This document shows positions 2,072 to 49,448 of a stretch of DNA of 64,000 nt, one piece after another. Source of the DNA: an uncultured Muribaculaceae bacterium (GTDB lineage: Bacteria > Bacillota_I > Bacilli_A > RF39 > UBA660). The stretch spans positions 50,363-114,362 of the forward strand of contig CAYJJI010000001.1 of assembly GCA_964370475.1 (NCBI GenBank), given 5' to 3'. The position numbers and the translations under genes are program-made. Positions within the stretch are counted from its first letter, which is position 1, and each line of letters opens with the position of its first letter. A model generated the notes under the pieces. That model did no database searches, was not told the origin of the DNA, and saw nothing but the letters and a program-made list of their open reading frames with translations.

Positions 2072-3850
2072 TTACTGCGCGAAGGAAAGCACCGAGCGTG
2101 CCGAAGAGAGGCCGTTAGGATATCCAGTGAGGCTGCTGAAATTCCAAACACCAGCACCACTGTCATCATAACAAGACCCACCTCGGTTGAACCAGGAATA
2201 AGTCGAGTTGACAAAGTTAGCTTTATCAGAGCTCCAGTTGGACATCGTAGTGCTATATGGATTTAACTCTACTGTTGCATCTCCATATATACCTCTTGTA
2301 TAATCACTAGAACTTGATCCATTAGCATATGAATCATAGTGCTTTGCATCTGGGGTAGTGGTGAAACCTGAAAGACTTGGATAGAAGTTTCCACTGCTAT
2401 CTTGCATATTCCCCATTACATATTCCCATCTTCCTCCTGCCATATCATATATACCTGTTATATTATGGGTTGTACTTGCTTTTATTCCATTTGCTGTTTC
2501 CCATCTATTACTTGCTGGACATATATTTATCCCTAATTCTGAGACATCTTGACTTGTATCAGATCCTCCACATCCAGTTACTATATCATATCCATTTGAA
2601 CTAGAATAATAATTATTGTTCTCTATTTTTACTGAACACGCTACATCATCTTCACATATTCCGTATTTAGATTGCGATAGATACGCTACCGCTCCCCACT
2701 CAGTATTTTTCATCATATGCATATCTGTGGTTGCATCCAATGAATATGCATTTTTAGTTCTTTGTATATTATAAAACATTGTACTTACATTTGCATTATG
2801 TGCTGAATTGACATTTGGTTTTATAATATAAGTAGTTTCCATGTCATTATTATTTTTTGGGTAATCTCCAGCATCTATAAAAATATTTTGCCATCCTAAC
2901 TCAAACTTCCCTACCCAAAGACCAGCTTGTTCTACACCACCAAAAGTAAATGCAGGATGAATTATTACATCATTATTTTCTATATCAGTATTAACTTTAC
3001 TAATTGGTACAAAGTTTATTTCTATTGATTCTTGTGCATTTACTATTGATGATTTTTTATATTCATATCTTGGAATCCATACATACATCTGCTCTATTGA
3101 TTCCATTGGTATTGTAGTTCCCGGATTTAGTGTTGTAAATGTTGGATCTACTATTACCGCATTCGCCCATTTTGATTCAGCATAACTATACCAAGCATCT
3201 TCATATATATCAGCAACAGTTACAACACCTGTATCTGCTATATTAACTGGTATCATTTTACTATCTAATACTGGATCACTTCCTGCTAAAACAGGATCAG
3301 TATAAGGAGGAAATGCTGCCTCAGCACTAACCGTAATCTTAGCTTGTATCTTTTTATTAGCAGCATTAGAAAGAGTTCCAGATCCATCTATCCACATTCT
3401 AAACATATGTTCATTAACTGCTCCTGGAGCTAAATTATAAGAAGATAAATTATAAGCAGTAGCTCCTTCAATAGTTGCTGTAGTAGTATTGCTTATAATA
3501 CTAGGAGTTAATCCATCAATAGAATATTTAATAAGATCATGACTTATATCAGTAATACTTAATACTTCTAAATTAACACTATATCTAGCATCAACAGTAC
3601 AAGTATTTTCTATTGAAAAGAAATAAGGAGCTTGAAACATTCCTTGATCATCAGTTAAAGGAAAAGAATTAGTTAAATTAATAGTACTACTACTATCCTC
3701 AGCAAAAACAATACTAAAACATCCCGAATCAACTAAATTTTCTCCAGATTGAGTTTCCCTTATCGACCATAATGCATACGAAAAACCAACAGCTATAGCT
3801 ACTGTTAATAATAAAGCAGTACCAATCAATATAATAAATTTAGGTTTCAT
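2072..3850 (-). CDS. Secreted modular protein, paralog 1: Sec signal peptide, unknown N-terminal module A, conserved linker B, C-terminal FGE/SUMF1-like domain
   Basis: Probable start at MKPKF (AGGAG 8 nt upstream; the ORF track has a longer alternative start). Hydrophobic segment ends ..SYA/LW. C-terminal motifs GIYDMAGGRWEYVMGN and WFNRGGSCYDDSGAGVW resemble FGE motifs GxYDMxGNVWEW and RVxRGGSW. Confidence 0.6.
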   Translation of the reverse strand: MKPKFIILIGTALLLTVAIAVGFSYALWSIRETQSGENLVDSGCFSIVFAEDSSSTINLTNSFPLTDDQGMFQAPYFFSIENTCTVDARYSVNLEVLSITDISHDLIKYSIDGLTPSIISNTTTATIEGATAYNLSSYNLAPGAVNEHMFRMWIDGSGTLSNAANKKIQAKITVSAEAAFPPYTDPVLAGSDPVLDSKMIPVNIADTGVVTVADIYEDAWYSYAESKWANAVIVDPTFTTLNPGTTIPMESIEQMYVWIPRYEYKKSSIVNAQESIEINFVPISKVNTDIENNDVIIHPAFTFGGVEQAGLWVGKFELGWQNIFIDAGDYPKNNNDMETTYIIKPNVNSAHNANVSTMFYNIQRTKNAYSLDATTDMHMMKNTEWGAVAYLSQSKYGICEDDVACSVKIENNNYYSSSNGYDIVTGCGGSDTSQDVSELGINICPASNRWETANGIKASTTHNITGIYDMAGGRWEYVMGNMQDSSGNFYPSLSGFTTTPDAKHYDSYANGSSSSDYTRGIYGDATVELNPYSTTMSNWSSDKANFVNSTYSWFNRGGSCYDDSGAGVWNFSSLTGYPNGLSSARSVLSFAQ

Positions 3851-3904
3851 TAAAACACTCCTATCATTAAAATAATTATATAACAAAATAAATATAAGTA
3901 CAAG

Positions 3905-5614: not shown

Positions 5615-5645
5615 TACCAAAAAAAGAAGATTACTCTTCTTTAAA
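5615..5645 (-). terminator. Rho-independent terminator of lon (hairpin including the stop codon, then T-run on minus strand)
   Basis: Minus strand reads aaagaag-agtaat-cttcttt followed by a T-run. Confidence 0.5.
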
Positions 5646-7949
5646 TAAATTATTAAATATTTCATCATATTTATTAACCCCAATAATCTCTAAATTATCA
5701 AGGACATATTTAGGAATAAACTCCAAATCAGTAACATTATCTTTAGGAATAAATATCTTTTTAATACCACTGTTATAAGCTCCAATAACTTTTTCTCTTA
5801 ATCCACCAATTTTTAATACATCACCTTGTAAATTAATTTCTCCAGTCATTGATATCTTATAATCAATTAATTTACTAGATAATAAACTAATCAAAGAAGT
5901 AACAATAGCACAACCAGCACTAGGTCCATCCTTTTTTATAGCTCCCTCTAAAAAGTGAATATGAATATCTTTCTTATCAAAAAAATAATCATTTACCATA
6001 AATTTATCTTTATTAGATCTTATATAACTGATAGCTACATCAACAGACTCATTCATCGTTTGACCAAGTAATCCCGTAATAATTCTCTTCCCACTACCAT
6101 CATACATCGAAGATTCTATTTGCATTATTAAACCACCAAAAGGAGTATAAGCCATTCCATTAACTACTCCAAAACTATCAAATAATATTTCATTATTAGA
6201 GTACTTACTATAACTTAAATATTTAACTAAATCCTTATCAGTTAATTTCTTAATAGATTTTTTATCTTTAATAATCCAATCAGTAACAATCTTTCTAACT
6301 ATTGTTTCCAAATTTCTTTGTAAATCTCTAACCCCAGATTCCTTCGTATAAGATTTAATAATTTTTAAAAGTAACTCATCATTAAAAACAATATCTTTCT
6401 TTAAAACTATATGATCTTTATATATATTAGGCAACAAATAGTTTTTAGCTATATCTACTTTTTGAAACTCAGTATAACTAGATAACTCAATTATCTCTAA
6501 TCTATCTAATAAAGCAGCTGGAATAGCTCCTATATCATTAGCAGTAAGAATAAACAATACCTTAGATAAATCAAAAGGTTCTTCTATATAATTATCAATA
6601 AACATCATATTTTGTTCAGTATCTAAAATATCTAATAAAACAGAAGCAGGATCCCCTTTAAAATCCTTAACCATCTTATCAATTTCATCAATTAAAATTA
6701 AAGGATTATTAACACCAGTCTTATTAATACCTTGAATAATCTTCCCTGCATTAGCTCCAAGATAAGTCTTACGATGTCCAATTAACTCATTAGAATCGTT
6801 CAACCCTCCAACACTAATCTTATAAAAACTTTTCTTTAAAGCTCCAGCAACTGCTTTAGCAAGCGTTGTCTTACCAACACCAGGAGGTCCTACAAAACAC
6901 AAAACAGGCGATTTAATATCCTTATTACGATTCTTTATAGCCACATATTCAATAATTCTCTCTTTAATATTTTCAAGACCATAATGACTCTTATCCAAAT
7001 ACTTTCTAATAACCTTCAAATCATCTTCATCTAAACTACTATTATTCCAAGGCAAATTAAGTACCAAATCTAAATAATTACGTATCACAGATGACTCAGG
7101 AGAAGATTCATTAGTATGTTCAAATTTCTTAATTTCTTTAGATATCTTAGCTTTAATAGAATCACTTATATCTAAATTATTTAATACATCAAAATAACTA
7201 CTAGTTAAATCATCTTTTTCTTCTTCATCACCAAGTTCCTTTTGAATTTCTTTTAACTTTTCTTTTAAAATAAACTCTCTTTGATTGTTTTCAAAAGACA
7301 TCTTCAAATTTTCTTCAATATGGTTATCTAACTCAAGAACTTGTAACTCTAACTTCAAATCAACTATCAAAGCATTAGCACGATGATAAGGATTTAATTC
7401 AACCATATAAGAAAGTTTTTTCTCCATACTAAAAGGAACATTATTAACAACTAAATCAACTAATAAATCTAAATCCTTTGAATTATTTAAAGTATTTATA
7501 AAACTATTAGAAACATATTTAGCAATCTTTAAAAAATCCTTAGTTAAATCAACTATTTTTCTTCTAACAGCTAATTCCTTAATTTCATTAAGTTTAGGAA
7601 AATCCAATAACATACAACGAGCTTCTAACACTTCATTATCTAAAATATAATTTGAATAAGACTTTATCTTAACTCTTCTCTTACCAGTAAGTACTATGCG
7701 GTAATTTCCATTAGGTAATTCTATTTTACTTTTAACAATAGCAATAACCCCTATAAAAGGCAAATCATTAATATCAGGACTCTCTTCAAATTGATTTCTA
7801 GGAGCTACAATTAATAACTCATTATTATGACTTCTAGTAGAAAGCTCAATAATGTTTTTAGATAAAATATTATTAAGTTCTAATTTAACTTCTTGATGAG
7901 GCAAAAGGACTAAATTTTTTAATAATAACACTGGTAAATTAATTGTCAT
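5631..7949 (-). CDS. lon: ATP-dependent Lon protease (LonA)
   Basis: 772 aa with an N-terminal LON domain, Walker A GPPGVGKTT and S16 active-site KDGPSAGCAIVTSLIS. AGGAGG ribosome-binding site. Confidence 0.9.
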   Translation of the reverse strand: MTINLPVLLLKNLVLLPHQEVKLELNNILSKNIIELSTRSHNNELLIVAPRNQFEESPDINDLPFIGVIAIVKSKIELPNGNYRIVLTGKRRVKIKSYSNYILDNEVLEARCMLLDFPKLNEIKELAVRRKIVDLTKDFLKIAKYVSNSFINTLNNSKDLDLLVDLVVNNVPFSMEKKLSYMVELNPYHRANALIVDLKLELQVLELDNHIEENLKMSFENNQREFILKEKLKEIQKELGDEEEKDDLTSSYFDVLNNLDISDSIKAKISKEIKKFEHTNESSPESSVIRNYLDLVLNLPWNNSSLDEDDLKVIRKYLDKSHYGLENIKERIIEYVAIKNRNKDIKSPVLCFVGPPGVGKTTLAKAVAGALKKSFYKISVGGLNDSNELIGHRKTYLGANAGKIIQGINKTGVNNPLILIDEIDKMVKDFKGDPASVLLDILDTEQNMMFIDNYIEEPFDLSKVLFILTANDIGAIPAALLDRLEIIELSSYTEFQKVDIAKNYLLPNIYKDHIVLKKDIVFNDELLLKIIKSYTKESGVRDLQRNLETIVRKIVTDWIIKDKKSIKKLTDKDLVKYLSYSKYSNNEILFDSFGVVNGMAYTPFGGLIMQIESSMYDGSGKRIITGLLGQTMNESVDVAISYIRSNKDKFMVNDYFFDKKDIHIHFLEGAIKKDGPSAGCAIVTSLISLLSSKLIDYKISMTGEINLQGDVLKIGGLREKVIGAYNSGIKKIFIPKDNVTDLEFIPKYVLDNLEIIGVNKYDEIFNNLFKEE

Positions 7950-8041: not shown

Positions 8042-9532
8042 TCAGTAAACAGCAGCTACAGATCTAGTAGCATACATTCCATAAGCTATCCCAAAATAAC
8101 TATTAAAAGCAAATACTCCCGCTTCAGTACCTAAATTAGCAGTAGAACCTCTATACATCCAATGATATTCGCCACCAACAAATCCAGCTGAATCACCATT
8201 CCAAGTTATTCTATTCGCTGGAGACATTTCAGTAGTAGCATCACCCGCAATACCTCTTGAATATTCATACATATTGGAAGAATAATTATAAGAATCATAA
8301 TACTTACTAGCAGGAACTGTAGGAAAAGCAGCATATGAATTAACAAAAGTTCCACTAGTACTCTTCATATTAGCCATTACTGCATCATATTTACCACCAG
8401 CCATATCATAAACTCCATAAACATTTCTAGTAGTAGAAGCCTTCGCCCCATTAGTAGTATTCCATCTATAAGTAGAAGGACAAATAGAAAGACCAGAAGC
8501 ATTAACTAAAACAGAAGTATCACTCCCTCCACATCCAGTAATAGTATCTAAATTAGTATTATGGTAACTATTATTCTCAACTTTTAAAGAACATGTCCCA
8601 TTGTCATTACAAACACCATACTTAGATTGAGATAAATACGCAATAGCACCCCATTCAATATTTTTAATCATATGAACATCTGTAGTTGAATCTAAACTAT
8701 AAAGTGTTTTAGCTTCTTGAACTTCCGTAAATAATCCATAATGATTTAAATTAACTACAGGAGCAACATTTGGAATATTCTTTGTATTTGCACCTTGTTC
8801 AAACTTACCTACCCAAAAACCAGATAACTTATCAGTTCCAAATGTAAAAGCAGAATGAGCAGTAGTATTTTTATCAACAAAATAAACATCAATAGCATTT
8901 GCAGAATTTACAATAGAACTAACATCATATCTAAATCTAGGAATCCATACATACATCTGTCCAACAGCACTCATAGGAATAACTGTTCCAGGAGGAGAAT
9001 TAAGATAAGATGTATTAGAAAGAACTATAGCATTCGCCCACTCACTATTCACATAATTGTACCATTCTTCTTCTAAATCAGCTACTTTGATCGTTCCATC
9101 ACTTTCTAAAACAATCGGTAACATTTTCGAATCTAAAAGTGGATCATTTCCATTCAATTCCGTTTCAATATATTTTTTAAAAAAATATATAGAACAATCA
9201 TCATTACCACTAAAAGACATATCTAAAGACCAATTTGATTGATTCCACACAGCTGTAGTAACTCCATCACAAACAAATCTATCAAAATGATAATTAGAAT
9301 TAGCAACAGGAAATTCAGTAGACTTAACACCACTAACATACACATTTAAATTAATAGGAGAATCAACTAACGAATTAATAATTACAGTATTATAATTAAC
9401 TTCAAAATACGCAAAAGAAATTCCCAAAATAGTAAATGCTATTAAAACAAGCAAAGAAAAAATTAAATGCTTTTTAGTATATTTCTTTTTATTATATTCC
9501 TTTGAAACATTAAATTGTTTCATATGAATCAC
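8042..9532 (-). CDS. Secreted modular protein, paralog 2: different N-terminal module, shared linker B, C-terminal FGE/SUMF1-like domain
   Basis: DPLLDSKMLPIV...WYNYVNSEWANAIV linker, then MYVWIPRFRYD..AFTFG..GFWVGKFE..EWGAIAYLSQSKYGVC..ITGCGGSDTS..GVYDMAGGKYDAVMANM..YRGS. Only 6 nt separate it from the pdp stop. Confidence 0.6.
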   Translation of the reverse strand: MIHMKQFNVSKEYNKKKYTKKHLIFSLLVLIAFTILGISFAYFEVNYNTVIINSLVDSPINLNVYVSGVKSTEFPVANSNYHFDRFVCDGVTTAVWNQSNWSLDMSFSGNDDCSIYFFKKYIETELNGNDPLLDSKMLPIVLESDGTIKVADLEEEWYNYVNSEWANAIVLSNTSYLNSPPGTVIPMSAVGQMYVWIPRFRYDVSSIVNSANAIDVYFVDKNTTAHSAFTFGTDKLSGFWVGKFEQGANTKNIPNVAPVVNLNHYGLFTEVQEAKTLYSLDSTTDVHMIKNIEWGAIAYLSQSKYGVCNDNGTCSLKVENNSYHNTNLDTITGCGGSDTSVLVNASGLSICPSTYRWNTTNGAKASTTRNVYGVYDMAGGKYDAVMANMKSTSGTFVNSYAAFPTVPASKYYDSYNYSSNMYEYSRGIAGDATTEMSPANRITWNGDSAGFVGGEYHWMYRGSTANLGTEAGVFAFNSYFGIAYGMYATRSVAAVY

Positions 9533-9538
9533 CTTTCA

Positions 9539-10780
9539 CTATTCTACAACATCATGAATTAAAGTAAAATCTGATTTTTCACCTATTTTATAAGGTACTC
9601 CTTTAGCTTCAATTGGACTATCACTAAACATAGTAAATAATACATCTCCAATTTTAACTTCATCATTAATATGTTTATTTATAACAATACCAGCATTAAA
9701 GTCTATTTTATCTTCCAAAGTTTTACGACCAGCACCTAATTCTAAAGATAACTTACCCATTTGCAAAGCATCAATAGAAGTAACATAACCACTAAATTTA
9801 CTTCTTACATCTACTCTATACTTAGCTACTTCATCAACTAAATGAATATTACCACCTTGATAACTAATAAATTCTCTTAACTTATTTAAGCCATCACCTT
9901 CAAGTATTTGTAAAACAATTTCTTCACTTTTATCTAAAGACATATTATGTCTTAAAGAAATAATCTGACTAGCTATAGTAATACATAAATCACGTAACTC
10001 CTCATTACCCTTACCACTTAAAACCTCAACAGCTTCTCTAACTTCTAATCTATTACCAATAGTAGATCCTAAAGGAATATCCATATTAGATAAAATAGCT
10101 CTAGTTTTAATTCCACACTCAGAACCAATCTTAACCATTAATTTAGCCAATTTTTTAGCATCTTTAATATTCTTCATGAATGCTCCACTACCTACTTTAA
10201 CATCTAATAATAACGTTTTAGCTCCACTAGCAATCTTTTTACTCATAATACTAGCAGCAATTAATGGAATGCTCTCAACAGTACCAGTAACATCTCTTAA
10301 ATGATATAACTTCTTATCAGCAGGAGCAATATTCTTAGTTTGACCCATAATAGCTATATTAATTTTTTTAGCTTGATCTATAAATTCTTCTTCAGTTAAA
10401 GAAGTATTAACTCCAACTGACTCTAACTTATCAATAGTACCACCAGTATATCCAAGACCTCTACCACTCATCTTTGCCAATCTACAATGAGCACAAGCAA
10501 CAATAGGACCGACAATCAAACTAACCTTATCACCAATACCTCCAGTAGAATGCTTATCAACCGTTTGAAAAGGCAAAGTAACACAATCTCCAGAATCAGT
10601 CATCTCTTTAGTTAAGCAAATCGTCTCCGCCTCACTCATTCCATTAATAACAATAGCCATTAATAAAGCAGATATTTGATAATCTTTAAAACTATCTAAA
10701 TTAGTAATAAAAAAACTAATATCTTCATTAGATAACTCTAATTTATTCTTCTTCTTTTCAATAATATCTAATATAGTCAT
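9539..10780 (-). CDS. pdp: Pyrimidine-nucleoside (thymidine) phosphorylase
   Basis: DKHSTGGIGDK, SGRGLGYTGGTIDKLE motifs. 413 aa. Confidence 0.85.
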   Translation of the reverse strand: MTILDIIEKKKNKLELSNEDISFFITNLDSFKDYQISALLMAIVINGMSEAETICLTKEMTDSGDCVTLPFQTVDKHSTGGIGDKVSLIVGPIVACAHCRLAKMSGRGLGYTGGTIDKLESVGVNTSLTEEEFIDQAKKINIAIMGQTKNIAPADKKLYHLRDVTGTVESIPLIAASIMSKKIASGAKTLLLDVKVGSGAFMKNIKDAKKLAKLMVKIGSECGIKTRAILSNMDIPLGSTIGNRLEVREAVEVLSGKGNEELRDLCITIASQIISLRHNMSLDKSEEIVLQILEGDGLNKLREFISYQGGNIHLVDEVAKYRVDVRSKFSGYVTSIDALQMGKLSLELGAGRKTLEDKIDFNAGIVINKHINDEVKIGDVLFTMFSDSPIEAKGVPYKIGEKSDFTLIHDVVE

Positions 10781-11163
10781 TTAACTTCTCCCTTAAAAGC
10801 ATAAGGTAATATACTATCAAGAGTATACTCCAATATCTCATCATTATTCTTTACATATATCTTAAAATCACTATTACAAAATTCACTCATCACTTGACGA
10901 CACACTCCACAAGGATAAGCAGGTTTATTTATATCATTACCAACAATAGCAATAGCAACAAACTCAAGTTCACCTTCACTAACTGCTTTAAAAAAAGCAG
11001 TTCGCTCAGCACAGTTACTAGGAGAATAAGCCTCATTTTCAACATTACAACCAGTATATATCTTACCACTTTTAGTTAATAAAGCTGCCCCTACCTTAAA
11101 ATTAGAATAAGGACTATAAGAAAATTCACGCGCTTCTATTGCACTATTAATTAATACATTCAT
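10777..11163 (-). CDS. cdd: Cytidine deaminase
   Basis: CAERTAFFKA and PCGVCRQV zinc-binding motifs. 128 aa. Confidence 0.85.
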   Translation of the reverse strand: MNVLINSAIEAREFSYSPYSNFKVGAALLTKSGKIYTGCNVENEAYSPSNCAERTAFFKAVSEGELEFVAIAIVGNDINKPAYPCGVCRQVMSEFCNSDFKIYVKNNDEILEYTLDSILPYAFKGEVK

Positions 11164-11192
11164 AATACACTCTCCATCTTAAAAATTATAAC

Positions 11193-11222
11193 ATAAAAAA
11201 AAGACTTATAAAAGTCTATTTT
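11193..11222. terminator. Hairpin terminator (aagactt-ataa-aagtctt with A/T flanks), copy 1 of an identical 27-bp repeat
   Basis: ataaaaaaaagacttataaaagtctatttt. Identical core at 13539-13568. Confidence 0.55.
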
Positions 11223-11937
11223 AATGATAATATACTCTATTTATAAAAGTTTTAACTTCATCATAAACCATATACTCTAAATCATTTACATTGTCACTAA
11301 AAGGATAAATATAATCTACAACACTTAACTCTTCTAAAGACCTTAAATCATTCAAATTAATATTAGTAATATAAACTAATTCACTTTTATTAAAAAACAA
11401 ATTATATCCACTTACATCAATCATAGTATCAGATTCATTTCCAACAGTAGTAGAAATTTCATAAGCATTAAAATCTTCTATCTTAGAAACATCAACACTA
11501 ACTGAATAATCATCTTTTCTAATAGATTCAAAATATTCAGTAATAATCGGTTCAACTACAACTTTCCCAGCATAACTATCTATTAAGATAGGTATATTAG
11601 AAAAAGCAATACTCTCTTCTCCAGCTAATATATTCCCACCATATACCGTCTCTGACTTTATCAAGTTTTCTTCATAATCATAATACTTAACATTAAAATC
11701 AATTGATTGATTTTTATTAGTATTATTTTCATAAATAAATACTAGTAGATCTTGTTTACTTATCAAATGATAAGTAAACAATACATCACTCTCTATAACC
11801 TCAATGTCCTCAGATTTATAATTATTAGAAACTAATACCTCCAAAGATTCATCAACACCTTTATTTATAAATAAATAAATTGATAAACTAATAAATATTA
11901 TCGACACAAAACTTAAAATCCATATAGCTATTTTCAT
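11221..11937 (-). CDS. Hypothetical membrane-anchored protein (N-terminal TM), encoded directly downstream of the large pilin
   Basis: 238 aa with an N-terminal hydrophobic segment (MKIAIWILSFVSIIFISLSIYLF), then a polar extracellular region. 18 nt from the pilin gene. Confidence 0.4.
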   Translation of the reverse strand: MKIAIWILSFVSIIFISLSIYLFINKGVDESLEVLVSNNYKSEDIEVIESDVLFTYHLISKQDLLVFIYENNTNKNQSIDFNVKYYDYEENLIKSETVYGGNILAGEESIAFSNIPILIDSYAGKVVVEPIITEYFESIRKDDYSVSVDVSKIEDFNAYEISTTVGNESDTMIDVSGYNLFFNKSELVYITNINLNDLRSLEELSVVDYIYPFSDNVNDLEYMVYDEVKTFINRVYYH

Positions 11938-11955
11938 TTTCTAACCTCCAAAAAA

Positions 11956-13491
11956 TCACTCAACTTCATAACACATACCCTCTGGACTATTTCCAAGACA
12001 TCTTTTAATTTCACATGTATGTTCACCAGTACAAACATCAAATCCCCAATCAGACCAAGGACCATTTTCTCTATAACCACTTCTTTCACAACTAAAAATA
12101 GGTTGATCTGCATTATTAATACAATAAGGATGACTTAAAACATAAAAGCTACCATTATACTGACATCTATTTCCATTATCACATACATATCCTGGTATAG
12201 GAGCTTTCGGATATACATGATGACCACTAATAAAAACAGAAGACCTAGTCCTATACTTAGTTACTATTGATAATTTAAAATAAACTTCAACAACAGTATT
12301 CTCTCTTGGCATAATAAAATTATCACTATTTAATAAAACTCCATTAACATACATTTTATCCACTTCATAATTTACATTCGGAACAAATGATAATGAAATA
12401 TTATTTCCAAATAAAGAAGAATCCTTACTTGAATATGCAACTCCACCATCACCATTAACAACACTAATGGTATATAAAGTTTTATCAACCTTACTTACAT
12501 TAAAAGGCATCTTAGCTTCATTACCTGCATTATCATAAACATATAAAACATAATCCCCATTATCTCTAGTAACAGTAATCAAACCATTATTAGAAAGAAA
12601 AACATTAATATCATTAATTCTTAATGAATTAATACCAGAGCCAACAACGCCATCATTATATTCGATATTTACTTCTCTATCCTTATTTATATACTCACTA
12701 TTATCAACATCTACTTCAATTACTGGAGGAATCTTATCAATCTTAAGTGTTCTAACTTTAGTTTTAAATCCTTCATTAGTTAAAATAGAACCATATATTG
12801 AAATAATAGAATTATCGGCACTAACTAATAACATATTAGAACAATCATCAACATTATTAATATCTACATTAGAAACATCACAAAAATTACTATCACTATA
12901 CTTTGAAGACTTATTTACTCCACCTCCAGTAAATACAATATCAGATCCTTCCTTAACGCTAAATCCATCATCAACATCTAAAACTAATAAAACGTCAGTA
13001 TTAATCCAAACAAATTCAGATAAACCACTAATTAATTCTAATTTATCACCAATAACCCCGTTAACTACCTTATAACCATCAAATTTCAACCCATCTTCAT
13101 CTTCAAGTTCATATTTAACACTACAATCATCAATTACTTCATCAGAAAAAGTAGCAACAATTTGATTCTTAGAAAAAGATATATTTATTGCATTACAACT
13201 CATATCACTACTATCAACAGGATTAATAACTTTATCACTATTAACATCATCAGAACTAATATATCCATCATATACAAGCTGTAAAACAGGTATCGTTATC
13301 GGAGCAGACAAGTTAAGTTCATCTCCCCATTTTTCAGAAGCTATTTCCAAACTTTGTATTTTATTATCTAAAGCCTTTTGCTTTCCTGAATTAGTAATAT
13401 TTATATAACTTGGAATAGCTATCAATAACAAAATACCAAGTATTACTATAGCTACTAATATTTCAACAATTGTAAATCCCTTATATTTCAT
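11956..13491 (-). CDS. Large type IV pilin-like protein (prepilin-type N-terminal cleavage/methylation domain plus ~470-aa C-terminal region with a Cys-rich end)
   Basis: MKYKG/FTIVEILVAIVILGILLLIAIPS is a classic class III signal (G at -1, E at +5). 511 aa. The last ~90 residues contain 10 Cys. Confidence 0.7.
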   Translation of the reverse strand: MKYKGFTIVEILVAIVILGILLLIAIPSYINITNSGKQKALDNKIQSLEIASEKWGDELNLSAPITIPVLQLVYDGYISSDDVNSDKVINPVDSSDMSCNAINISFSKNQIVATFSDEVIDDCSVKYELEDEDGLKFDGYKVVNGVIGDKLELISGLSEFVWINTDVLLVLDVDDGFSVKEGSDIVFTGGGVNKSSKYSDSNFCDVSNVDINNVDDCSNMLLVSADNSIISIYGSILTNEGFKTKVRTLKIDKIPPVIEVDVDNSEYINKDREVNIEYNDGVVGSGINSLRINDINVFLSNNGLITVTRDNGDYVLYVYDNAGNEAKMPFNVSKVDKTLYTISVVNGDGGVAYSSKDSSLFGNNISLSFVPNVNYEVDKMYVNGVLLNSDNFIMPRENTVVEVYFKLSIVTKYRTRSSVFISGHHVYPKAPIPGYVCDNGNRCQYNGSFYVLSHPYCINNADQPIFSCERSGYRENGPWSDWGFDVCTGEHTCEIKRCLGNSPEGMCYEVE

Positions 13492-13538
13492 AACTACCTC
13501 TACTATAACAAGTATAACCTAAAACAAAATAAAAACCA

Positions 13539-13568
13539 ATAAAAAAAGACTTATAAAAGTCTATTTTT
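13539..13568. terminator. Hairpin terminator, copy 2 of the identical 27-bp repeat (terminates tig)
   Basis: ataaaaaaagacttataaaagtctatttttt, same core as 11193-11222. Confidence 0.55.
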
Positions 13569-14802
13569 TAATTACTTCCATAGCAGCACGCATTTTCAAA
13601 TCATACTTAACTATATCTAATCCACCAAATGAATCTAAGAAATCAGCTTCCTTCATTCCATATCCTTCAGCCATATTCTTAGCTTCAGCTTTAGCATCTT
13701 TATCAGATATTTCAATCTTTTCAGCATCAGCAATACCTTCAAGTAAATATCTATAAGTCACTCTCTTAGTAGCTTCTGGATTCATTTGTTCATGAATCTT
13801 TTCATGAGTCATACCAGTAAATTGGAAATATTGATCAATATTTAATCCTTGCATTTTCAATTGTTCTTCAAATTGATGAATCATTCTATGAACTTCATCA
13901 CTAATTATTTCAGGATTAATTTCAACTTTCATTTCTTTAGCAGCAGTTTCTAAACATTCATTAATAAACTTATCTTCTACTTCAGCTTCCTTTTTAGTTT
14001 TGATTTTATTTTCAATTTCAGTTCTAAATTCAGCTTCAGTTTCAACTTTATCAAAACCTAAATCTAAATAGAATTCTTTAGTTAATTCAGGTAATTTTCT
14101 TTCTTTAATTTCATTAACTTTAACTTTAAATAAAACTTCTTTATTTTTTAATTCTTCAGTATAGTTTTCAGGAAACTTAAGATTTAACTCTTTAGAATCT
14201 CCAACACTCATCCCAATTAAACCTTCTTCAAAACCAGGAATAAAAGTATGTGAACCAATTTCTAATGGATAATTAGCTCCAGTTCCACCTTCTAATACTT
14301 TACCATCTACAAAACCTTCGAAATCTATAACAGCAGTATTACCATCTTCAACACTACCACTTTCTTTAACAGCTACTTCAGCATACTTACTAGATAAAGA
14401 TTTAATTTCCTCATCAATTTCTTTCTTAGTAACTTTTACAGCATCTTTTTTAACACCTAATTTAGTGTATTTACCTAATTTAACTTCAGGTTTAGTAATT
14501 ATTGTAAATTCAAACTCAACATGTTTATCATCAATTCCAATGATATTCATTTTAGGTTCAACAACTGGTATTAATTTATTATCTTTTAATACTTTAGTAT
14601 ATGCACTATTAAGTGCAATATCAGTAGCATCCATATATAAAGATTCTACACCAACTTTTTTGATATATAAATCTTTAGTAACAGAACCTTTTCTAAACCC
14701 ATCAATTTTAATATCTTTCTTTTTCTTATTAAATGCTTCATCAATAGCAGAAGTCCATTCTTTTCCTTTAACTTCTACTTTGATTGTATGTATATTTTTC
14801 AT
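13561..14802 (-). CDS. tig: Trigger factor
   Basis: GFRKGSV motif near the N-terminus. 413 aa with PPIase-type domain order. Confidence 0.85.
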   Translation of the reverse strand: MKNIHTIKVEVKGKEWTSAIDEAFNKKKKDIKIDGFRKGSVTKDLYIKKVGVESLYMDATDIALNSAYTKVLKDNKLIPVVEPKMNIIGIDDKHVEFEFTIITKPEVKLGKYTKLGVKKDAVKVTKKEIDEEIKSLSSKYAEVAVKESGSVEDGNTAVIDFEGFVDGKVLEGGTGANYPLEIGSHTFIPGFEEGLIGMSVGDSKELNLKFPENYTEELKNKEVLFKVKVNEIKERKLPELTKEFYLDLGFDKVETEAEFRTEIENKIKTKKEAEVEDKFINECLETAAKEMKVEINPEIISDEVHRMIHQFEEQLKMQGLNIDQYFQFTGMTHEKIHEQMNPEATKRVTYRYLLEGIADAEKIEISDKDAKAEAKNMAEGYGMKEADFLDSFGGLDIVKYDLKMRAAMEVIKK

Positions 14803-14861: not shown

Positions 14862-14890
14862 AAAAAAATAGCATTTTTATGCTATTTTTA
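14862..14890. terminator. Bidirectional hairpin terminator between greA and tig (aaaatagca-ttttta-tgctatttt)
   Basis: 9-bp perfect stem with A/T-rich flanks. The greA stop lies within the loop. Confidence 0.5.
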
Positions 14891-15353
14891 TAATCTTAAT
14901 ATCATAAGTTCCATTAGGACTTGCAACACTTATTACATCTCCTACTTTACGACCCATAACAGCTTCACCAATAGGTGATTCATTACTAATTTTATTGTTA
15001 AACGGATCAGCTTCCAAAGAACCTACTATTTGGTATTCTTCTTCATCATCATCTTCGTCAATATAACTTATAGTAATTGTATTTCCTACACCAACTTCGT
15101 CTTTAGATCCAACTTCAACAATTTTAGCATTTTGTAATTTATATTCAAGTTCAGTAATTCTCGCTTCTAGTTGAGCTTGCTCTTCACGAGCAGCATCATA
15201 TTCAGAATTTTCTGATAAATCTCCATGGCTTCTAGCTTCTTTAATAGCAGCTACCACTTCAACTCTTTTATTTAATTTTAAATCATTTAATTCTTCTTCT
15301 AATTCTAAATACCCTTTAGATGTCAGCAAAATAGCTTGTTTTTTCATATTCAT
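14877..15353 (-). CDS. greA: Transcription elongation factor GreA
   Basis: 158 aa with an N-terminal coiled coil and C-terminal FKBP-like domain (MGRKVGDVISV). Confidence 0.85.
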   Translation of the reverse strand: MNMKKQAILLTSKGYLELEEELNDLKLNKRVEVVAAIKEARSHGDLSENSEYDAAREEQAQLEARITELEYKLQNAKIVEVGSKDEVGVGNTITISYIDEDDDEEEYQIVGSLEADPFNNKISNESPIGEAVMGRKVGDVISVASPNGTYDIKIIKIA

Positions 15354-19967: not shown

Positions 19968-20723
19968 TCAATAAATAAACAAGTTATTTAAAACTTCCAT
20001 TATTTGATTTCCAAACATAAATGTAATATAAACAGCAGTAATTAAAAACGGTCCAAAAGGTACTTCAGACTCTAACTTAGTATGAATGAAATAAATAGCA
20101 AACGGTAAAGTCAATAAAGAACCAATTATAAGTGCCACAAAAGATAACTGAAATCCTAGTACAACCCCAAATAAGAAAGCTAACTTAACATCTCCAAAAC
20201 CTAAACTCTCTCTTTTAAATACTCTATCGCCAACAAACTTAATTAAATACATAACAAGAAATAATACCACTCCAACTAAAATACTAAATAAAAATTCTTC
20301 AACACCACTAAGGACTAACTTAGTAATTAAAATAGTAACAATCCCTAAAACTAAAGGAATATCCAATATATACAAATATTTGAAATCACTTACATAAGTA
20401 ATTACTAGTATAGAACTGATAACTAAATATATAATCAACCCTTCTAAGGAATTACTCATATAATAAGATAAACCAAATAAAAATCCAGTTAATAATTCAA
20501 TTAAAACATAACTAATAGACAATTTATACCCACACTTACTACATTTTCCTCTTAAAAAAACATAAGAAAAAACTGGTATTAGTTCATACCATGAAAGAGG
20601 CTTATCACACCCCTCACAATGACTACCAGGTTTAACAATTGATTCTCCTCTAGATAATCTATCACCAACTACGTGAAAGAAAGATCCAAAAAACAACCCA
20701 AAAATTCCAAATAAATAAACCAT
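19968..20723 (-). CDS. pilD: Prepilin peptidase (A24 family)
   Basis: 251 aa polytopic membrane protein. N-terminal Cys tetrad (CEGCDKPL...CSKCGYKL) and C-terminal peptidase domain. 9 nt downstream of the pilC-like gene. Confidence 0.7.
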   Translation of the reverse strand: MVYLFGIFGLFFGSFFHVVGDRLSRGESIVKPGSHCEGCDKPLSWYELIPVFSYVFLRGKCSKCGYKLSISYVLIELLTGFLFGLSYYMSNSLEGLIIYLVISSILVITYVSDFKYLYILDIPLVLGIVTILITKLVLSGVEEFLFSILVGVVLFLVMYLIKFVGDRVFKRESLGFGDVKLAFLFGVVLGFQLSFVALIIGSLLTLPFAIYFIHTKLESEVPFGPFLITAVYITFMFGNQIMEVLNNLFIY

Positions 20724-20732
20724 ATTATCCCC

Positions 20733-22262
20733 CTACATATTAATTGTACCATACATTCCATACATTGGCATTACAACCGCCATCAAAATAGCTCCAACAA
20801 CTACTGCCAAACCAGCAATCATAACCGGTTCTATAATAGCTTTAAAACTAGTAACTATCGACTTATGTTGTATTTGAAAATGCTCACTAACTTTTTCCAT
20901 CATTGAAGCAAGTTCTCCAGTCGATTCCCCAGTAACAATCATGAAATAAGCTGCACTAGGAATAGCCCAGTGATCTTTAAAAGTTTCAGATATCTTACCA
21001 CCAGTAGATATATTATTAATAGTTTCAAACATAATTTCTTTATAAACTTCATTAGAAGTTATCCTACTTAAAATATCCATACTATCAGTAATATAAACAC
21101 TATTCTTTAACAATGACGAAAACGTCTTAGTAAAAATAGTTATCTCATTAAATATTATTAAATCCTTAATTACAGGAATCTTCATTACCATTATTTGCAT
21201 TGCTTTTCTAAAAGCTTTAACTTTCTTATAAGAAAACACAAATACTAAAACAACTAAAATAGTAACAGCTATATATATTAAGTAATTAGCTTGCAAATTT
21301 TCCGATAAATTTAATACTAACAATGTAATCCCAGTAACAGGAGCACCCATTGATTCATAAATACCTTCAAACTCTGGCATTATAAATAACATTATAAATA
21401 TAACAATACCTACAGCAAATACACTTATTATCGCCGGATAAGTCATAGCACTAATCATATCTTTTTTAGTTTTATCAATCTCAGAATAATAATTAGCCAT
21501 ATCATCTAAAGTAGATTGTAAATCTCCAGTAGCTTCAGCTGCTTTTAACATATTAATTAATAAACTAGGAAACATTCCACCTTGCTTAGTTAAAGCATTA
21601 GAAAAACTCTCTCCCATAGTAAGTTCATAAACGATAGCATTAAAAATACTTTTTCTCGCAGTATCTTTACCAGTTTGTTGAGCTAAAATTCTCATAGAGT
21701 CAGTTAATGGTATACCACTTCTTACATAAGTAGATAATTGTGTTAACCAAAAAATTAAATCTTTACTTTTCATCTTACGAGGAAATAAACCACTTTCGCC
21801 ATAAACAAAATTAATCCAATCACTAGTTTCAATACTAAAAACTTCATAACCTTCATTAACTAAAAAAGTATTAACATCTAACTTAGACATCCCAGTAAAA
21901 TTATCAGTAACAAGTTTACCTTTATAATCAAGTGCAGTATATCTAAATATTGTTGGTTTAGTTAATCTCTTAGCATCTTCACCAGTTAACTCAGCATTAA
22001 GCTTAGCTTTCTTCTCTTCTAACTTAGCAAGTACTCTAGGACTAATTTTAGTCTTACGATCTACCACAGCTTCTTTTTTTTCAGTTTTTATTATGTTCTT
22101 AGTACCTTTATAAGTTTTATCAACTGCACTAGAAGAAACATAATATAATTTAGCTAAAGGAGAAAATAAAACTTTTAATCCTAGAAAAGCATATCTAAAT
22201 ATATCAAAAAAACTTAATATAAAATTAATTGGCATAAACAATACATTACTCTTCTTAGCCAT
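20733..22262 (-). CDS. pilC: Type IV pilus / type II secretion platform protein (GspF/PilC family) with ~120-aa N-terminal extension
   Basis: Two T2SSF-like repeats. Characteristic YTALDYKGKLVTDNFTGMSKLDVNTFLVNEGYEVFSIE N-domain. 509 aa. Confidence 0.7.
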   Translation of the reverse strand: MAKKSNVLFMPINFILSFFDIFRYAFLGLKVLFSPLAKLYYVSSSAVDKTYKGTKNIIKTEKKEAVVDRKTKISPRVLAKLEEKKAKLNAELTGEDAKRLTKPTIFRYTALDYKGKLVTDNFTGMSKLDVNTFLVNEGYEVFSIETSDWINFVYGESGLFPRKMKSKDLIFWLTQLSTYVRSGIPLTDSMRILAQQTGKDTARKSIFNAIVYELTMGESFSNALTKQGGMFPSLLINMLKAAEATGDLQSTLDDMANYYSEIDKTKKDMISAMTYPAIISVFAVGIVIFIMLFIMPEFEGIYESMGAPVTGITLLVLNLSENLQANYLIYIAVTILVVLVFVFSYKKVKAFRKAMQIMVMKIPVIKDLIIFNEITIFTKTFSSLLKNSVYITDSMDILSRITSNEVYKEIMFETINNISTGGKISETFKDHWAIPSAAYFMIVTGESTGELASMMEKVSEHFQIQHKSIVTSFKAIIEPVMIAGLAVVVGAILMAVVMPMYGMYGTINM

Positions 22263-42489: not shown

Positions 42490-42517
42490 AAAAAAACAAT
42501 AGTATCAACTATTGTTA
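42490..42517 (-). terminator. Rho-independent terminator after tadC-like gene (aacaatagt-atca-actattgtt plus T-run on minus strand)
   Basis: 9-bp perfect stem overlapping the stop codon. Confidence 0.5.
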
Positions 42518-43204
42518 ATTTAAAAATTCTATAATTCTTGGAGCTAATATAATTAACATAACAACTGGTAGAAATAATAATAAACTAGCAATAAATACAT
42601 ATACAGGAACTCTATTAATCTTCTCTTTTAATAGAATAAAATTAAACTGTCTCATATCATCTACTTGATAATCCAAAGAAGTTATTATCTCACTCCCCAA
42701 TTTATTAGCTTGAATAAATAACTGAATAATACTTCTTATTTTAATAGAAGGTATTCTCTCAGCTAAAGAATTTAAAGACTCCTTTAAATTCTTACCACTC
42801 TTCATATCTTCTAAAGCCTTAAAAAATTCATCACTAAGTTCACCATCGATATTCTCACAACTAACTAACAAACTCTCACTAATCGACTTACCACTCTTTA
42901 AAGCTAAAGAAACCCCTTCAAAATAATATATAGCATTCTCTTCCAAAGTAACTATTCTAGATTTAATCTTATTATCAAATAAAATAACTCCCATACTTAT
43001 ATATATTACTACTACTATTATCGGAGCAAATATATATCCATAATCTCCTAAAAAACTAGCACCAATTAATATAATCATACATAGTATTAGTCTATTAAAC
43101 AAAAACTTATATACATTAGTATCATTACCACTTAATAAAGCCCTATTATTATAATAATCTATCGTCTTCTTAGAATATATTAACTTAACTAAACCTCTAA
43201 TCAT
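42515..43204 (-). CDS. Tad/Flp-type pilus assembly membrane protein (TadC-like, T2SSF domain)
   Basis: 229 aa. TM, then cytoplasmic helical T2SSF-like domain, then C-terminal TMs. Paired with the TadB-like gene. Confidence 0.5.
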   Translation of the reverse strand: MIRGLVKLIYSKKTIDYYNNRALLSGNDTNVYKFLFNRLILCMIILIGASFLGDYGYIFAPIIVVVIYISMGVILFDNKIKSRIVTLEENAIYYFEGVSLALKSGKSISESLLVSCENIDGELSDEFFKALEDMKSGKNLKESLNSLAERIPSIKIRSIIQLFIQANKLGSEIITSLDYQVDDMRQFNFILLKEKINRVPVYVFIASLLLFLPVVMLIILAPRIIEFLN

Positions 43205-44195: not shown

Positions 44196-44203
44196 AAACC
44201 TCC

Positions 44204-49345: not shown

Positions 49346-49448
49346 TTTATACCTCCTTTATAATTTTTTGAAGACTCGCCTTAAAGGTGACTTACGTACT
49401 TAAACCTTTTTAGTGCGGTTTTAAAGAAAAGCCCTTAAAACATTAAAA

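What the first reader, a model, noticed from the sequence alone, without database searches (positions are those of the whole stretch)
11193..13568. 511-aa prepilin-type protein with Cys-rich C-terminus plus a membrane-anchored partner, flanked by identical 27-bp hairpin repeats
The protein at 11956-13491 has a textbook class III signal (MKYKG/FTIVEILVAIVILGILLL, E at +5). It is roughly three to four times the length of typical 100-170-aa type IV pilins. Its final ~90 residues contain 10 cysteines (..HPYCINNADQPIFSCERSGYRENGPWSDWGFDVCTGEHTCEIKRCLGNSPEGMCYEVE). This is a giant minor-pilin or tip-adhesin architecture. The two-gene unit (pilin plus 238-aa anchored protein) sits between tig and cdd. 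It is bracketed by identical copies of aaaaaaagacttataaaagtctatttt at 11193-11222 and 13539-13568. Each copy is also a terminator hairpin. Identical flanking repeats 2.3 kb apart are compatible with insertion by duplication of the tig terminator. They also form a substrate for excision by recombination.
Basis: seen in the sequence. Interest (0 to 1): 0.6.

Follow-up and report, generated by a model that had tools for sequence, protein, structure and literature searches.

The report
Giant modular pilin in a variable slot
An uncultured, AT-rich gut Bacilli bacterium encodes a 511-residue type IV pilin that carries extra domains and a lineage-restricted eight-cysteine tip, next to a membrane-anchored partner gene, in a gene slot after tig bounded by two identical hairpins; it is a new member of the known class of modular pilins, not a new kind of system.

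Summary
The ORF at 11956-13491 (-) is a true type IV pilin (PF07963 and TIGR02532 above cut-off; G-1/F+1/E+5). The tail has 8 cysteines, not 10. The exact 27-mer lies at 11196-11222 and 13541-13567, and nowhere else in the window.

AlphaFold gives a confident pilin module plus two Ig-like domains (aa 1-338). The InlB-B-repeat-like segment and the 8-Cys module (aa 405-511) stay unmodelled. That module has no relative among 1.84 billion proteins except in one related MAG. In that MAG the pilin and the 238-aa partner (37% identical) are again adjacent, but at another locus.

In that MAG the tig|cdd slot is bounded by the same hairpin family (22-25/27) but holds a different gene. No relative has tig directly followed by cdd. 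The tig 3' flank is variable across the clade.

PilD and PilC genes lie 6.5 kb away. Composition is host-like, and plasmids and phages give no hit.

Best reading: a modular minor pilin, probably tip-displayed and adhesive, with a cognate bitopic accessory protein, in a recombination-prone slot. It is a new member of a known kind, of moderate interest.

The parts
13541..13567 (-). Hairpin repeat T1. On the minus strand it reads AAAATAGACTTTTATAAGTCTTTTTTT. It overlaps the tig stop codon TAG (13561-13563) and is terminator-like.
   Evidence: Exact 27-mer, 2 copies only. Fold energy -8.2 kcal/mol. The orthologous hairpin after tig in L010 matches 25/27.
13497..13510 (-). Possible extended -10 element (TGTTATAGT, 13502-13510) and ribosome-binding site (GAGG, 13497-13500) for the pilin gene.
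   Evidence: Read from the sequence. The promoter scan did not call it. This is inference only.
13318..13491 (-). Pilin aa 1-58: class III signal (leader MKYKG, cleavage before F6, E at +5) and the long alpha-1 helix.
   Evidence: PF07963 and TIGR02532 above cut-off. AF2 helix 8-58. PDB pilins match aa 3-55, and S. sanguinis PilE1 matches aa 6-111.
13102..13317 (-). Pilin aa 59-130: globular pilin head, with the Cys99/Cys123 pair conserved in the homologs.
   Evidence: AF2 pLDDT about 73-89 in most blocks, falling to about 53 at aa 121-130; strands at 100-107 and 110-119. Conserved Cys columns in alignment A1.
12478..13101 (-). Pilin aa 131-338: two Ig-like beta-sandwich domains (about 135-250, with Cys204/Cys217, and about 255-335, with the SGI...DxAGN...VDKT motifs).
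   Evidence: AF2 pLDDT 80-93. Foldseek finds tandem Ig-domain proteins in the PDB. This is the most conserved part of the family.
12274..12477 (-). Pilin aa 339-406: divergent InlB B-repeat-like segment.
   Evidence: Pfam Flg_new_2 E=3.4e-4, 21.0 bits, below the cut-off of 23.6. The paralog in L001 scores 24.6, above the cut-off. The AF2 model is not confident here.
11959..12273 (-). Pilin aa 407-511: orphan module with 8 invariant Cys, VxKYRT and GxWxxW motifs. It is the presumed exposed tip.
   Evidence: Invariant columns in 3 sequences. The only other hit among 1.84e9 representative proteins is P0004. No PDB sequence relative. AF2 pLDDT about 30.
11221..11937 (-). p238: a 238-aa acidic, cysteine-free protein with an N-terminal membrane anchor, probably co-transcribed with the pilin (18-nt gap, GGAGG ribosome-binding site).
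   Evidence: It is 37% identical to the 238-aa gene that follows the homologous pilin in L001. No Pfam or NCBIfam family. No other homolog found.
11196..11222 (-). Hairpin repeat T2, identical to T1. It starts inside the p238 stop codon (11221-11223).
   Evidence: The orthologous hairpin before cdd in L010 matches 22/27.
11185..11212 (-). Promoter-like site for cdd (TTTATA, 16-nt spacer, TATAAT, with TG). The element TGTTATAAT is conserved upstream of cdd in L010.
19968..20723 (-). Prepilin peptidase (PilD type), the candidate processing enzyme.
   Evidence: A24_N_bact E=5e-31 and Peptidase_A24 E=5e-11.
20733..22262 (-). PilC/GspF-type platform protein (two T2SSF domains).
   Evidence: TIGR02120 E=5e-74, below the equivalog cut-off.
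13561..14802 (-). tig (trigger factor), the conserved upstream border of the slot.
10777..11163 (-). cdd (cytidine deaminase), the downstream border of the slot.

Best explanation
The 511-aa protein is a modular type IV pilin of an uncultured, AT-rich (27.5% GC) gut Bacilli lineage.

Inferred mechanism. The PilD-type peptidase encoded 6.5 kb away (19968-20723) cleaves it after Gly5 and methylates Phe6. The hydrophobic alpha-1 helix holds it in the membrane. A T4P machine, using the PilC platform at 20733-22262 and an ATPase that is not in this window, incorporates it through its small pilin module. The protein carries about 380 extra residues: two Ig-like domains, an InlB-B-repeat-like segment and an 8-Cys module. 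Because of this bulk it most likely sits at the pilus tip as a low-abundance minor pilin. The Ig domains would act as a stalk and the disulfide-knotted C-terminal module as the ligand-binding end.

The partner. The downstream 238-aa protein is anchored in the membrane with its body outside the cell. It is a cognate accessory factor, since it travels with this tip type in the one relative that has it. I infer that it handles or partners the bulky ectodomain at the membrane before or during assembly. Its function is not shown.

The location. The pair occupies a variable slot directly 3' of tig. In this lineage the slot is bounded by two copies of one terminator-like hairpin. T1 contains the tig stop codon. 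T2 sits just before the cdd promoter. The cargo between the hairpins differs between the two closest genomes, so the slot has been refilled by recombination. The perfect 27/27 identity here reflects either a recent duplication of the tig terminator during that event or later gene conversion.
For: Pilin identity:
- (PDB pilins MshA, PilA5 and S. sanguinis PilE1 match the N-terminus).
- AF2 gives helix 8-58, a head and two beta-sandwiches, with mean pLDDT above 70 in nearly all 10-residue blocks of aa 11-330 (only aa 121-130 about 53).
- tandem Ig hits.

[quoted passage not shown] Interchangeable tips are described (PMC12075869).

Family chassis with swapped tips: P0006 has vWA, P0003 has fn3, P0002, P0004 and P0005 have different Cys-rich ends, and the L007 pilin has Flg_new plus DUF4214.

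Machinery: PilD and PilC are in the window. In L162, related giant pilins lie next to a PilB/GspE-type ATPase.

Partner: the gap is 18 nt with a GGAGG site. The same pilin + 238-aa pair, 37% identical, occurs at a different locus in L001. Small bitopic genes also follow the giant pilins in L162 and L163.

Slot: the tig 3' flank is variable across the clade. In L010 the order is tig-T1-637aa-T2-cdd-pdp-lon, with hairpins of the same family. Identities are 27/27 within the window, against 25/27 and 22/27 to the orthologs and 22/27 within L010.

The pair has host-like GC, GC3 and codon usage and no plasmid or phage homolog.
Against: - No PilB-type assembly ATPase and no major pilin is visible in the 64 kb. 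The only T2SSE ATPase is TadA/CpaF-like, in a separate Tad-like cluster.
- Tip location, adhesion and processing are all inferred. No ligand-binding fold could be assigned, because aa 339-511 have pLDDT about 30.
- The partner's role is unknown. Its AF2 model is unusable (pLDDT 40).
- Partners at other loci are not detectably homologous to p238 or to each other. Two giant pilins, the one in L007 and the first in L001, have no partner.
- The hairpin has only 2 G-C pairs, and the terminator scan did not flag it.
- The slot history rests on only two genomes.
Confidence: 0.6

Rival explanations
1. The class III signal serves only as a membrane or pseudopilus anchor. The protein would be a cell-surface adhesin displayed close to the membrane, like bindosome-type substrates or short pseudopili, and not part of an extended pilus. 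p238 would be its membrane-side docking partner.
For: No major pilin and no PilB-type ATPase is found in the window. The pilin gene is an orphan, separated from PilC-PilD by housekeeping genes. It sits next to a membrane-anchored protein. The window encodes many other surface adhesins (BspA-LRR, thioester-domain), so a general surface-display context exists.
Against: The pilin module is complete, with a 50-residue alpha-1 helix, a head and a conserved Cys pair. It is most similar to polymerising pilins. Related giant pilins lie beside a PilB-type ATPase in L162. Orphan minor-pilin genes away from the machinery are common (general knowledge).
Confidence: 0.15
2. The pilin tip and its downstream bitopic gene form a polymorphic recognition or antagonism pair. 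A variable Cys-rich effector or recognition module would be displayed on a pilus, with a cognate membrane-anchored protector or partner. This would be organised like polymorphic toxin systems or the archaeal VARTIG modules.
For: The family has a conserved N-terminal chassis with unrelated C-terminal ends. Tandem paralog arrays occur (L001 with 2, L162 with 3). In L162 the three pilins differ completely in the last 30-40 Cys-rich residues after a PPPP/GGGD linker. Each is followed by an unrelated small bitopic gene. The organisation parallels VARTIG, which has a large Ig protein with a hypervariable C-terminus plus small membrane proteins (PMC8416519).
Against: No toxin domain was detected in any member. 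One member's tip is a vWA adhesion domain, yet it still has a downstream bitopic gene. The window's tip and partner are conserved at 31-39% identity with the relative's, so they are not hypervariable. I found no literature precedent for pilin-borne toxins.
Confidence: 0.08
3. The identical hairpins say nothing about insertion. They would be two pre-existing terminators of one family, kept identical by gene conversion or by selection on a shared terminator or operator function. The pair would then be an old resident of the slot.
For: Both hairpins exist in L010 around a different gene. The composition of the pair is indistinguishable from the host's. A giant pilin also follows tig directly in L007, where tig is 60% identical.
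Against: In the closest relative the pilin pair is at another locus and the slot holds another gene. So at least one replacement occurred after the split. The L007 pilin is not flanked by repeated hairpins and shares only the N-terminus.
Confidence: 0.3

Closest known systems
Modular type IV pilins, e.g. Streptococcus sanguinis PilB (pilin + vWA) and PilC (pilin + lectin) (Raynaud et al. 2021, PMC8179133; Shahin et al. 2023, PMC9934059)
   Same: It comes from a monoderm host. It has a canonical class III signal and a small pilin module, with functional modules grafted C-terminally. Presentation by the pilus, likely at the tip, is predicted. One family member (P0006) even carries a vWA module like PilB.
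   Different: It is longer and has several modules: two Ig-like stalk domains, an InlB-B-repeat-like segment and an orphan 8-Cys module with no database signature. The gene is not in a pil operon. It is paired with a bitopic protein that has no counterpart in S. sanguinis. Nothing has been tested experimentally.
Large tip minor pilins with beta-rich extra domains: ETEC CofB, V. cholerae TcpB, Tad TadG, Myxococcus KilN 'Tips'
   Same: These are large pilins whose extra C-terminal domains are exposed at the filament end. Some dock a partner protein, such as CofJ or TcpF. Tips can be interchanged on one machine.
   Different: Those are diderm T4b or Tad systems encoded within their pilus operons. 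Their partners are secreted proteins, not membrane-anchored ones. No sequence or fold relationship to them was shown here.
VARTIG modules of Thermococcales and polymorphic toxin systems (Makarova et al. 2021, PMC8416519)
   Same: The gene organisation is alike: a large secreted Ig-domain protein with a variable C-terminal end, followed by small predicted membrane proteins, in shuffled and variable loci.
   Different: This is analogy only. The domain of life differs, there is no homology, and here the carrier is a type IV pilin. No toxin domain is present.
Intrinsic (Rho-independent) terminators reused as short recombination substrates or duplicated at insertion sites
   Same: The element has a hairpin plus a U-tract directly after the stop codon of each transcription unit. 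It is present as direct repeats flanking accessory DNA.
   Different: The stem is very weak (2 G-C pairs). No recombinase, integrase or transposase lies nearby. It is not a dispersed repeat (2 copies in 64 kb). It does not have an attC-like or REP-like architecture.

Membership tests
Type IV pilins (class III signal peptide; PF07963 / TIGR02532 / IPR012902) | A short, charged leader ending in Gly, followed by about 20 hydrophobic residues with Glu at +5. | tested here: met
   MKYKG|FTIVEILVAIVILGILLLIAIP has G-1, F+1 and E+5.
Type IV pilins (class III signal peptide; PF07963 / TIGR02532 / IPR012902) | A profile match above the curated cut-off. | tested here: met
   PF07963 scores 28.9 bits against 21.2. 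TIGR02532 scores 24.0 against 16.3.
Type IV pilins (class III signal peptide; PF07963 / TIGR02532 / IPR012902) | The lollipop fold: an alpha-1 helix of about 50 residues packed on a beta-sheet head. | tested here: met
   The AF2 model has helix 8-58 and head strands up to about aa 125, with pLDDT about 71-93 in most blocks (59 at aa 1-10, 53 at aa 121-130). This is a prediction, not a solved structure.
Type IV pilins (class III signal peptide; PF07963 / TIGR02532 / IPR012902) | A cognate prepilin peptidase and platform protein in the genome. | tested here: met
   PilD-type peptidase at 19968-20723 and PilC/GspF-type protein at 20733-22262.
Type IV pilins (class III signal peptide; PF07963 / TIGR02532 / IPR012902) | A PilB-type assembly ATPase and a major pilin in the genome. 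| tested here: inconclusive
   None in the 64-kb window. The only ATPase there is TadA-like. The rest of the genome is not available.
Type IV pilins (class III signal peptide; PF07963 / TIGR02532 / IPR012902) | Cleavage and N-methylation by PilD, and polymerisation into filaments. | not testable with these tools
   Needs biochemistry and microscopy.
Modular pilins (sensu Raynaud et al. 2021) | [quoted passage not shown] | tested here: met
   Two Ig-like domains, weak Flg_new_2 and the 8-Cys module.
Competence pseudopilins (ComGC/GE/GF) or T2SS pseudopilins (GspG-K) | An equivalog HMM score above the cut-off. | tested here: not met
   ComGC scores 27.4 against 75, GspG 32.5 against 88.9 and ComGE 25.3 against 49. 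Only the N-terminal 50-80 residues match.
Intrinsic terminator | A G+C-rich stem-loop followed by a U-tract directly after a stop codon. | tested here: inconclusive
   A U7-8 tract and a 6-bp stem are present, with energy -7.2 and -8.2 kcal/mol. Only 2 G-C pairs, and the scan did not call it. Position and conservation after tig in L010 favour a terminator role.
Mobile element or integron-type cassette | A recombinase, integrase or transposase nearby; structured att/attC sites; foreign composition; homologs on plasmids or phages. | tested here: not met
   No such gene appears among the ORFs examined around the slot. Composition is host-like. No plasmid or phage hit. The repeat is a simple 27-nt hairpin.
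Thrombospondin type 1-like (WSxW / RxR layered) repeat, considered for the 8-Cys module | A Pfam TSP_1 match, or W-layer, R-layer and Cys spacing in the canonical order. | tested here: not met
   No Pfam hit at E<=0.1. The KYRT motif precedes GxWxxW by about 60 residues, which is the reverse of the TSR order. This was a resemblance from memory only.

The most novel reading that the evidence does not exclude
Giant pilins of this uncultured gut Bacilli clade would be carriers for interchangeable, disulfide-knotted C-terminal 'warheads', each with a cognate fast-evolving bitopic membrane partner. Such a pilus-borne polymorphic recognition or antagonism system would be organised like polymorphic toxin or VARTIG modules. 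In this reading the hairpin-bounded slot after tig would act as a cassette-exchange site, using the duplicated terminator as the crossover point.
Probability: 0.08. Interest if true: 0.7.

Novelty: new member of a known kind. Interest (0 to 1): 0.36.

Why it matters
Modular pilins explain how simple type IV filaments gain many functions. Nearly all studied examples come from cultured pathogens. This locus adds a rare family from uncultured, genome-reduced gut Bacilli, with only 5 relatives among 5.8 billion proteins. One pilin-plus-Ig chassis carries unrelated tips: vWA, fn3 and several kinds of Cys-rich knot. The chassis is often followed by a small membrane-anchored gene.

The 8-Cys module has no detectable relative outside one MAG, so it is a candidate new adhesin fold. 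If the partner proves to be required, it would define an accessory factor class for bulky pilins in monoderms.

The hairpin-bounded slot after tig shows on a small scale how accessory surface genes are swapped in these genomes. None of this overturns current understanding.

Tried and rejected
- Fold of the C-terminal half. AF2 with the 6-sequence alignment left aa 339-511 at pLDDT about 30. The word-index search with the 3-sequence module alignment returned nothing. The exhaustive HMMER search returned only the two query sources. PDB sequence search gave only chance hits to antibody chains.
- p238. The homolog search found only the protein itself. It has no Pfam or NCBIfam family. The single-sequence AF2 model was unusable (pLDDT 40), so no fold search was run on it. 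hhalign found no internal repeat, so my impression of two DUF4352-like sandwiches is dropped.
- Homology between p238 and the positional partners in L162 and L163 is not significant beyond the transmembrane segment. The L162 partners also do not match each other.
- Search for strains of the same species or an empty site. The metagenome scan with cdd returned nothing closer than 67% identity and no locus with tig nearby. The window's own genome is not among the GTDB representatives; the best tig match is 78%.
- The context of P0002 and P0003, the closest pilins, could not be retrieved. Cluster look-up gave no accession.
- Mobile-element origin. There are no plasmid or phage hits and no compositional deviation.
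- Repeated hairpins as a general feature of pilin insertions are rejected. The L007 pilin has different hairpins on its two sides. The hairpin pattern is absent from all other fetched loci.
- Rfam finds nothing in the region.
- A TSR-like reading of the WSxW motif is not supported (see the membership test).
- NCBIfam did not confirm the SipW-cognate signal suggested for neighbouring proteins. Only a weak Peptidase_M73 hit was found in L001.
Full report
**1. What is in the sequence**

All genes around the finding are on the minus strand. The order is greA (14877-15353), tig (13561-14802), a 511-aa ORF (11956-13491), a 238-aa ORF (11221-11937), cdd (10777-11163), pdp (9539-10780), a 496-aa ORF (8042-9532) and lon (5631-7949). 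The window has 27.5% G+C.

The 511-aa protein begins MKYKG|FTIVEILVAIVILGILLL, with Gly at -1, Phe at +1 and Glu at +5. It passes the curated cut-offs of PF07963 (28.9 bits against 21.2) and TIGR02532 (24.0 against 16.3). It is the only class III signal found in six-frame translation of the window.

It has 12 cysteines. Two pairs lie in the N-terminal half (99/123 and 204/217). Eight lie in the last 75 residues (437-507).

The 27-mer AAAAAAAGACTTATAAAAGTCTATTTT occurs exactly twice, at 11196-11222 and 13541-13567. Even with three mismatches allowed there is no further copy, and shuffles gave none. Outside the 27-mer the two copies differ by one A in the A-run and then diverge.

On the coding strand each copy reads AAAATAGACTT-TTAT-AAGTCTTTTTTT. 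This is a 6-bp stem with 2 G-C pairs, a 4-nt loop and a U7-8 tract. Free energies are -8.2 and -7.2 kcal/mol, z about -2.4. T1 contains the tig stop codon TAG. T2 begins inside the stop codon of the 238-aa gene and is followed at once by an extended -10 promoter-like site for cdd. The strict terminator scan did not call either copy, so 'terminator' remains a reasonable inference.

**2. What the protein is**

AlphaFold2, with the six-sequence family alignment, gives a confident model for residues 1-338. It shows:
- an alpha-1 helix at 8-58;
- a small beta head up to about residue 125;
- two beta-sandwich domains at about 135-250 and 255-335.

Foldseek against the PDB returns tandem Ig-domain proteins. 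HMMER against PDB sequences returns polymerising pilins for the N-terminus: MshA, PilA5 and S. sanguinis PilE1, the last over residues 6-111.

Residues 339-406 resemble a divergent InlB B-repeat. Flg_new_2 gives E=3.4e-4, just below the cut-off, and is above the cut-off in a paralog from the relative.

Residues 405-511 form a module with eight invariant cysteines plus VxKYRT and GxWxxW motifs. AF2 could not model this half (pLDDT about 30).

**3. How rare it is**

Only five other proteins among 5.8 billion are related to the whole protein. They share the pilin module and the Ig-like chassis but end differently:
- vWA (P0006);
- fn3 (P0003);
- three other kinds of Cys-rich sequence (P0002, P0005/L162, and the 1090-aa L007 pilin, which also has Flg_new and DUF4214).

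An exhaustive profile search with the 8-Cys module against 1.84 billion representatives found only the window protein and P0004. There is no PDB sequence relative and no hit on plasmids or phages.

[quoted passage not shown] The idea of interchangeable pilus tips is also published (PMC12075869). So this is a new member of a known kind, with an orphan tip module.

**4. The partner**

The 238-aa ORF starts 18 nt after the pilin stop codon, behind a GGAGG site. It has an N-terminal hydrophobic helix, no cysteine and a pI of 4.1. It matches no family.

In the related MAG GCA_964368665.1 (locus L001), two tandem giant pilins with the same 8-Cys module are followed by a 238-aa protein that is 37% identical over its full length. 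The pair is therefore a conserved unit, although it lies at a different locus there.

Elsewhere, giant pilins of the family are also followed by small N-terminally anchored proteins:
- L162 has three tandem pilins, each followed by proteins of 107-146 aa, next to a PilB/GspE-type ATPase.
- L163 has the vWA pilin followed by a 262-aa protein.

These are positional analogues only. No similarity beyond the transmembrane segment could be shown. Two giant pilins, the one in L007 and the first in L001, lack a partner. The partner's role is unknown. I infer a membrane-side accessory or docking role for the bulky ectodomain.

**5. Machinery**

A PilD-type prepilin peptidase (19968-20723) and a PilC/GspF-type platform protein (20733-22262) lie 6.5 kb upstream, separated from the pilin by housekeeping genes. 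A separate Tad-like cluster lies at 42515-46310, with a ParA/MinD-like ATPase, a TadA-type ATPase and two T2SSF proteins. No PilB-type ATPase or major pilin is in the window.

**6. The slot and the repeats**

I fetched 80 tig loci from GTDB representative genomes and mapped the window's genes onto the closest ones.

- In distant relatives, tig is followed directly by lon.
- In closer ones, 1-3.5 kb of unrelated accessory genes lie between them: a membrane protein, an ATP-grasp-like protein, a small two-gene pair, a lipoprotein, and in L007 a 1090-aa giant pilin.
- In the closest relative (L010, tig 78% identical, cdd 88%) the order is tig, T1, a 637-aa surface protein, T2, cdd, pdp, lon.

Homology between the two genomes stops right after the U-tract of T1 and resumes at the first base of the T2 hairpin. 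In both genomes, then, the variable cargo lies exactly between two hairpins of one family. The C-terminal 360 residues of the 637-aa cargo are homologous to the window's 496-aa gene, which here sits after pdp.

Hairpin identities are as follows:

| Comparison | Identity |
|---|---|
| T1 vs T2 within the window | 27/27 |
| Window vs L010 T1 | 25/27 |
| Window vs L010 T2 | 22/27 |
| T1 vs T2 within L010 | 22/27 |

The two-hairpin slot therefore predates the split of the two genomes or arose twice, and the cargo was exchanged at least once. The perfect identity in this window points to a recent duplication, for example a single crossover at the hairpin by a pilin-p238-T segment. Gene conversion would give the same result, and these data cannot separate the two.

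Several further points bear on this:
- The pair has host-like GC, GC3 and codon usage.
- No recombinase gene was seen next to it.
- Repeated hairpins do not flank the L007 pilin.
- No relative with tig directly followed by cdd was found, in the tig loci or in 80 metagenomic cdd loci.

**7. Verdict**

The pilin interpretation is supported. The insertion interpretation is plausible but only partly supported.

The most likely mechanism is a PilD-processed modular minor pilin, displayed at the tip of a type IV pilus. The Ig-like domains would form a stalk and the disulfide-knotted orphan module the binding end. A cognate bitopic accessory protein would assist. The unit sits in a recombination-prone slot 3' of tig.

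Two rivals remain: a non-filament surface anchor, and a polymorphic recognition or antagonism pair analogous to VARTIG or polymorphic toxin systems. Neither is excluded, but both have less support.

Interest is moderate. The class is known. The tip module and the recurring partner are new details, and the hairpin-bounded slot is a curiosity based on two genomes.

Noticed in passing
window 19968-22262 (-): A PilD-type prepilin peptidase and a 509-aa PilC/GspF-type platform protein sit together, next to a 563-aa surface protein. No PilB-type ATPase or pilin gene is beside them.
   Followed up: partly
window 42515-46310 (-): A Tad-like cluster: a ParA/MinD-like ATPase (45513-46310), a TadA/CpaF-type ATPase (44204-45520) and two single-domain T2SSF proteins (43197-44195, 42515-43204). 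My motif scan found no Flp-type pilin nearby.
   Followed up: partly
window 8042-9532, 2072-3886, 22350-24041, 29347-30738 (all -); L001 5795-8325; L010 2540-4453: Several large surface proteins start with a hydrophobic segment ending in FAYF(E/S) or (F/Y)A(L/V)W. This is reminiscent of TasA/camelysin (SipW-dependent) signals. In L001 two such small proteins and a signal-peptidase-like gene follow the pilin pair. NCBIfam gave no hit, and Pfam gave only a weak Peptidase_M73 match (E=0.006).
   Followed up: partly
window 8042-9532 vs L010 2540-4453: The window's 496-aa gene after pdp is homologous (43% identity over about 360 aa) to the C-terminal part of the 637-aa gene that fills the tig|cdd slot in the closest relative. 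The same surface-protein gene therefore occupies different positions in the two genomes.
   Followed up: partly
L002-L020, region 3' of tig: The tig 3' flank is a hotspot for unrelated accessory genes across this clade: a membrane protein, an ATP-grasp-like protein, a small two-gene pair, a lipoprotein, a giant pilin. More distant relatives have tig directly followed by lon.
   Followed up: yes
L162 10001-19691: Three tandem giant pilins of 716-726 aa are nearly identical. They differ only in the last 30-40 residues, which are unrelated Cys-rich tails after a PPPP/GGGD linker. Each pilin is followed by unrelated small bitopic proteins. A PilB/GspE-type ATPase is adjacent.
   Followed up: partly
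L007 11318-14590: A 1090-aa pilin lies directly after tig in a relative with 60% tig identity. It has repeated Ig-like units, Flg_new/InlB B-repeats, a CxxC-rich stretch and a C-terminal DUF4214. It has no partner gene and no repeated hairpins.
   Followed up: partly
window 27855-29174 (-) and 29347-30738 (-): A thioester-domain (TED) plus SpaA-fold protein and a BspA-type LRR protein. The window is rich in predicted adhesins.
   Followed up: no
L001 and L010 (assembly GCA_964368665.1): The record is titled 'uncultured Muribaculaceae bacterium'. Its tig, cdd, pdp and lon genes are closest to this window and to MAGs labelled Bacilli, Tenericutes or Firmicutes CAG:582. The label or the binning is probably wrong. 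The contigs also contain N-runs inside genes.
   Followed up: no
window 49362-49430 (-): Ribosomal protein L21 leader (RF00559, 45.7 bits) upstream of rplU. This was the only Rfam hit in the window.
   Followed up: no
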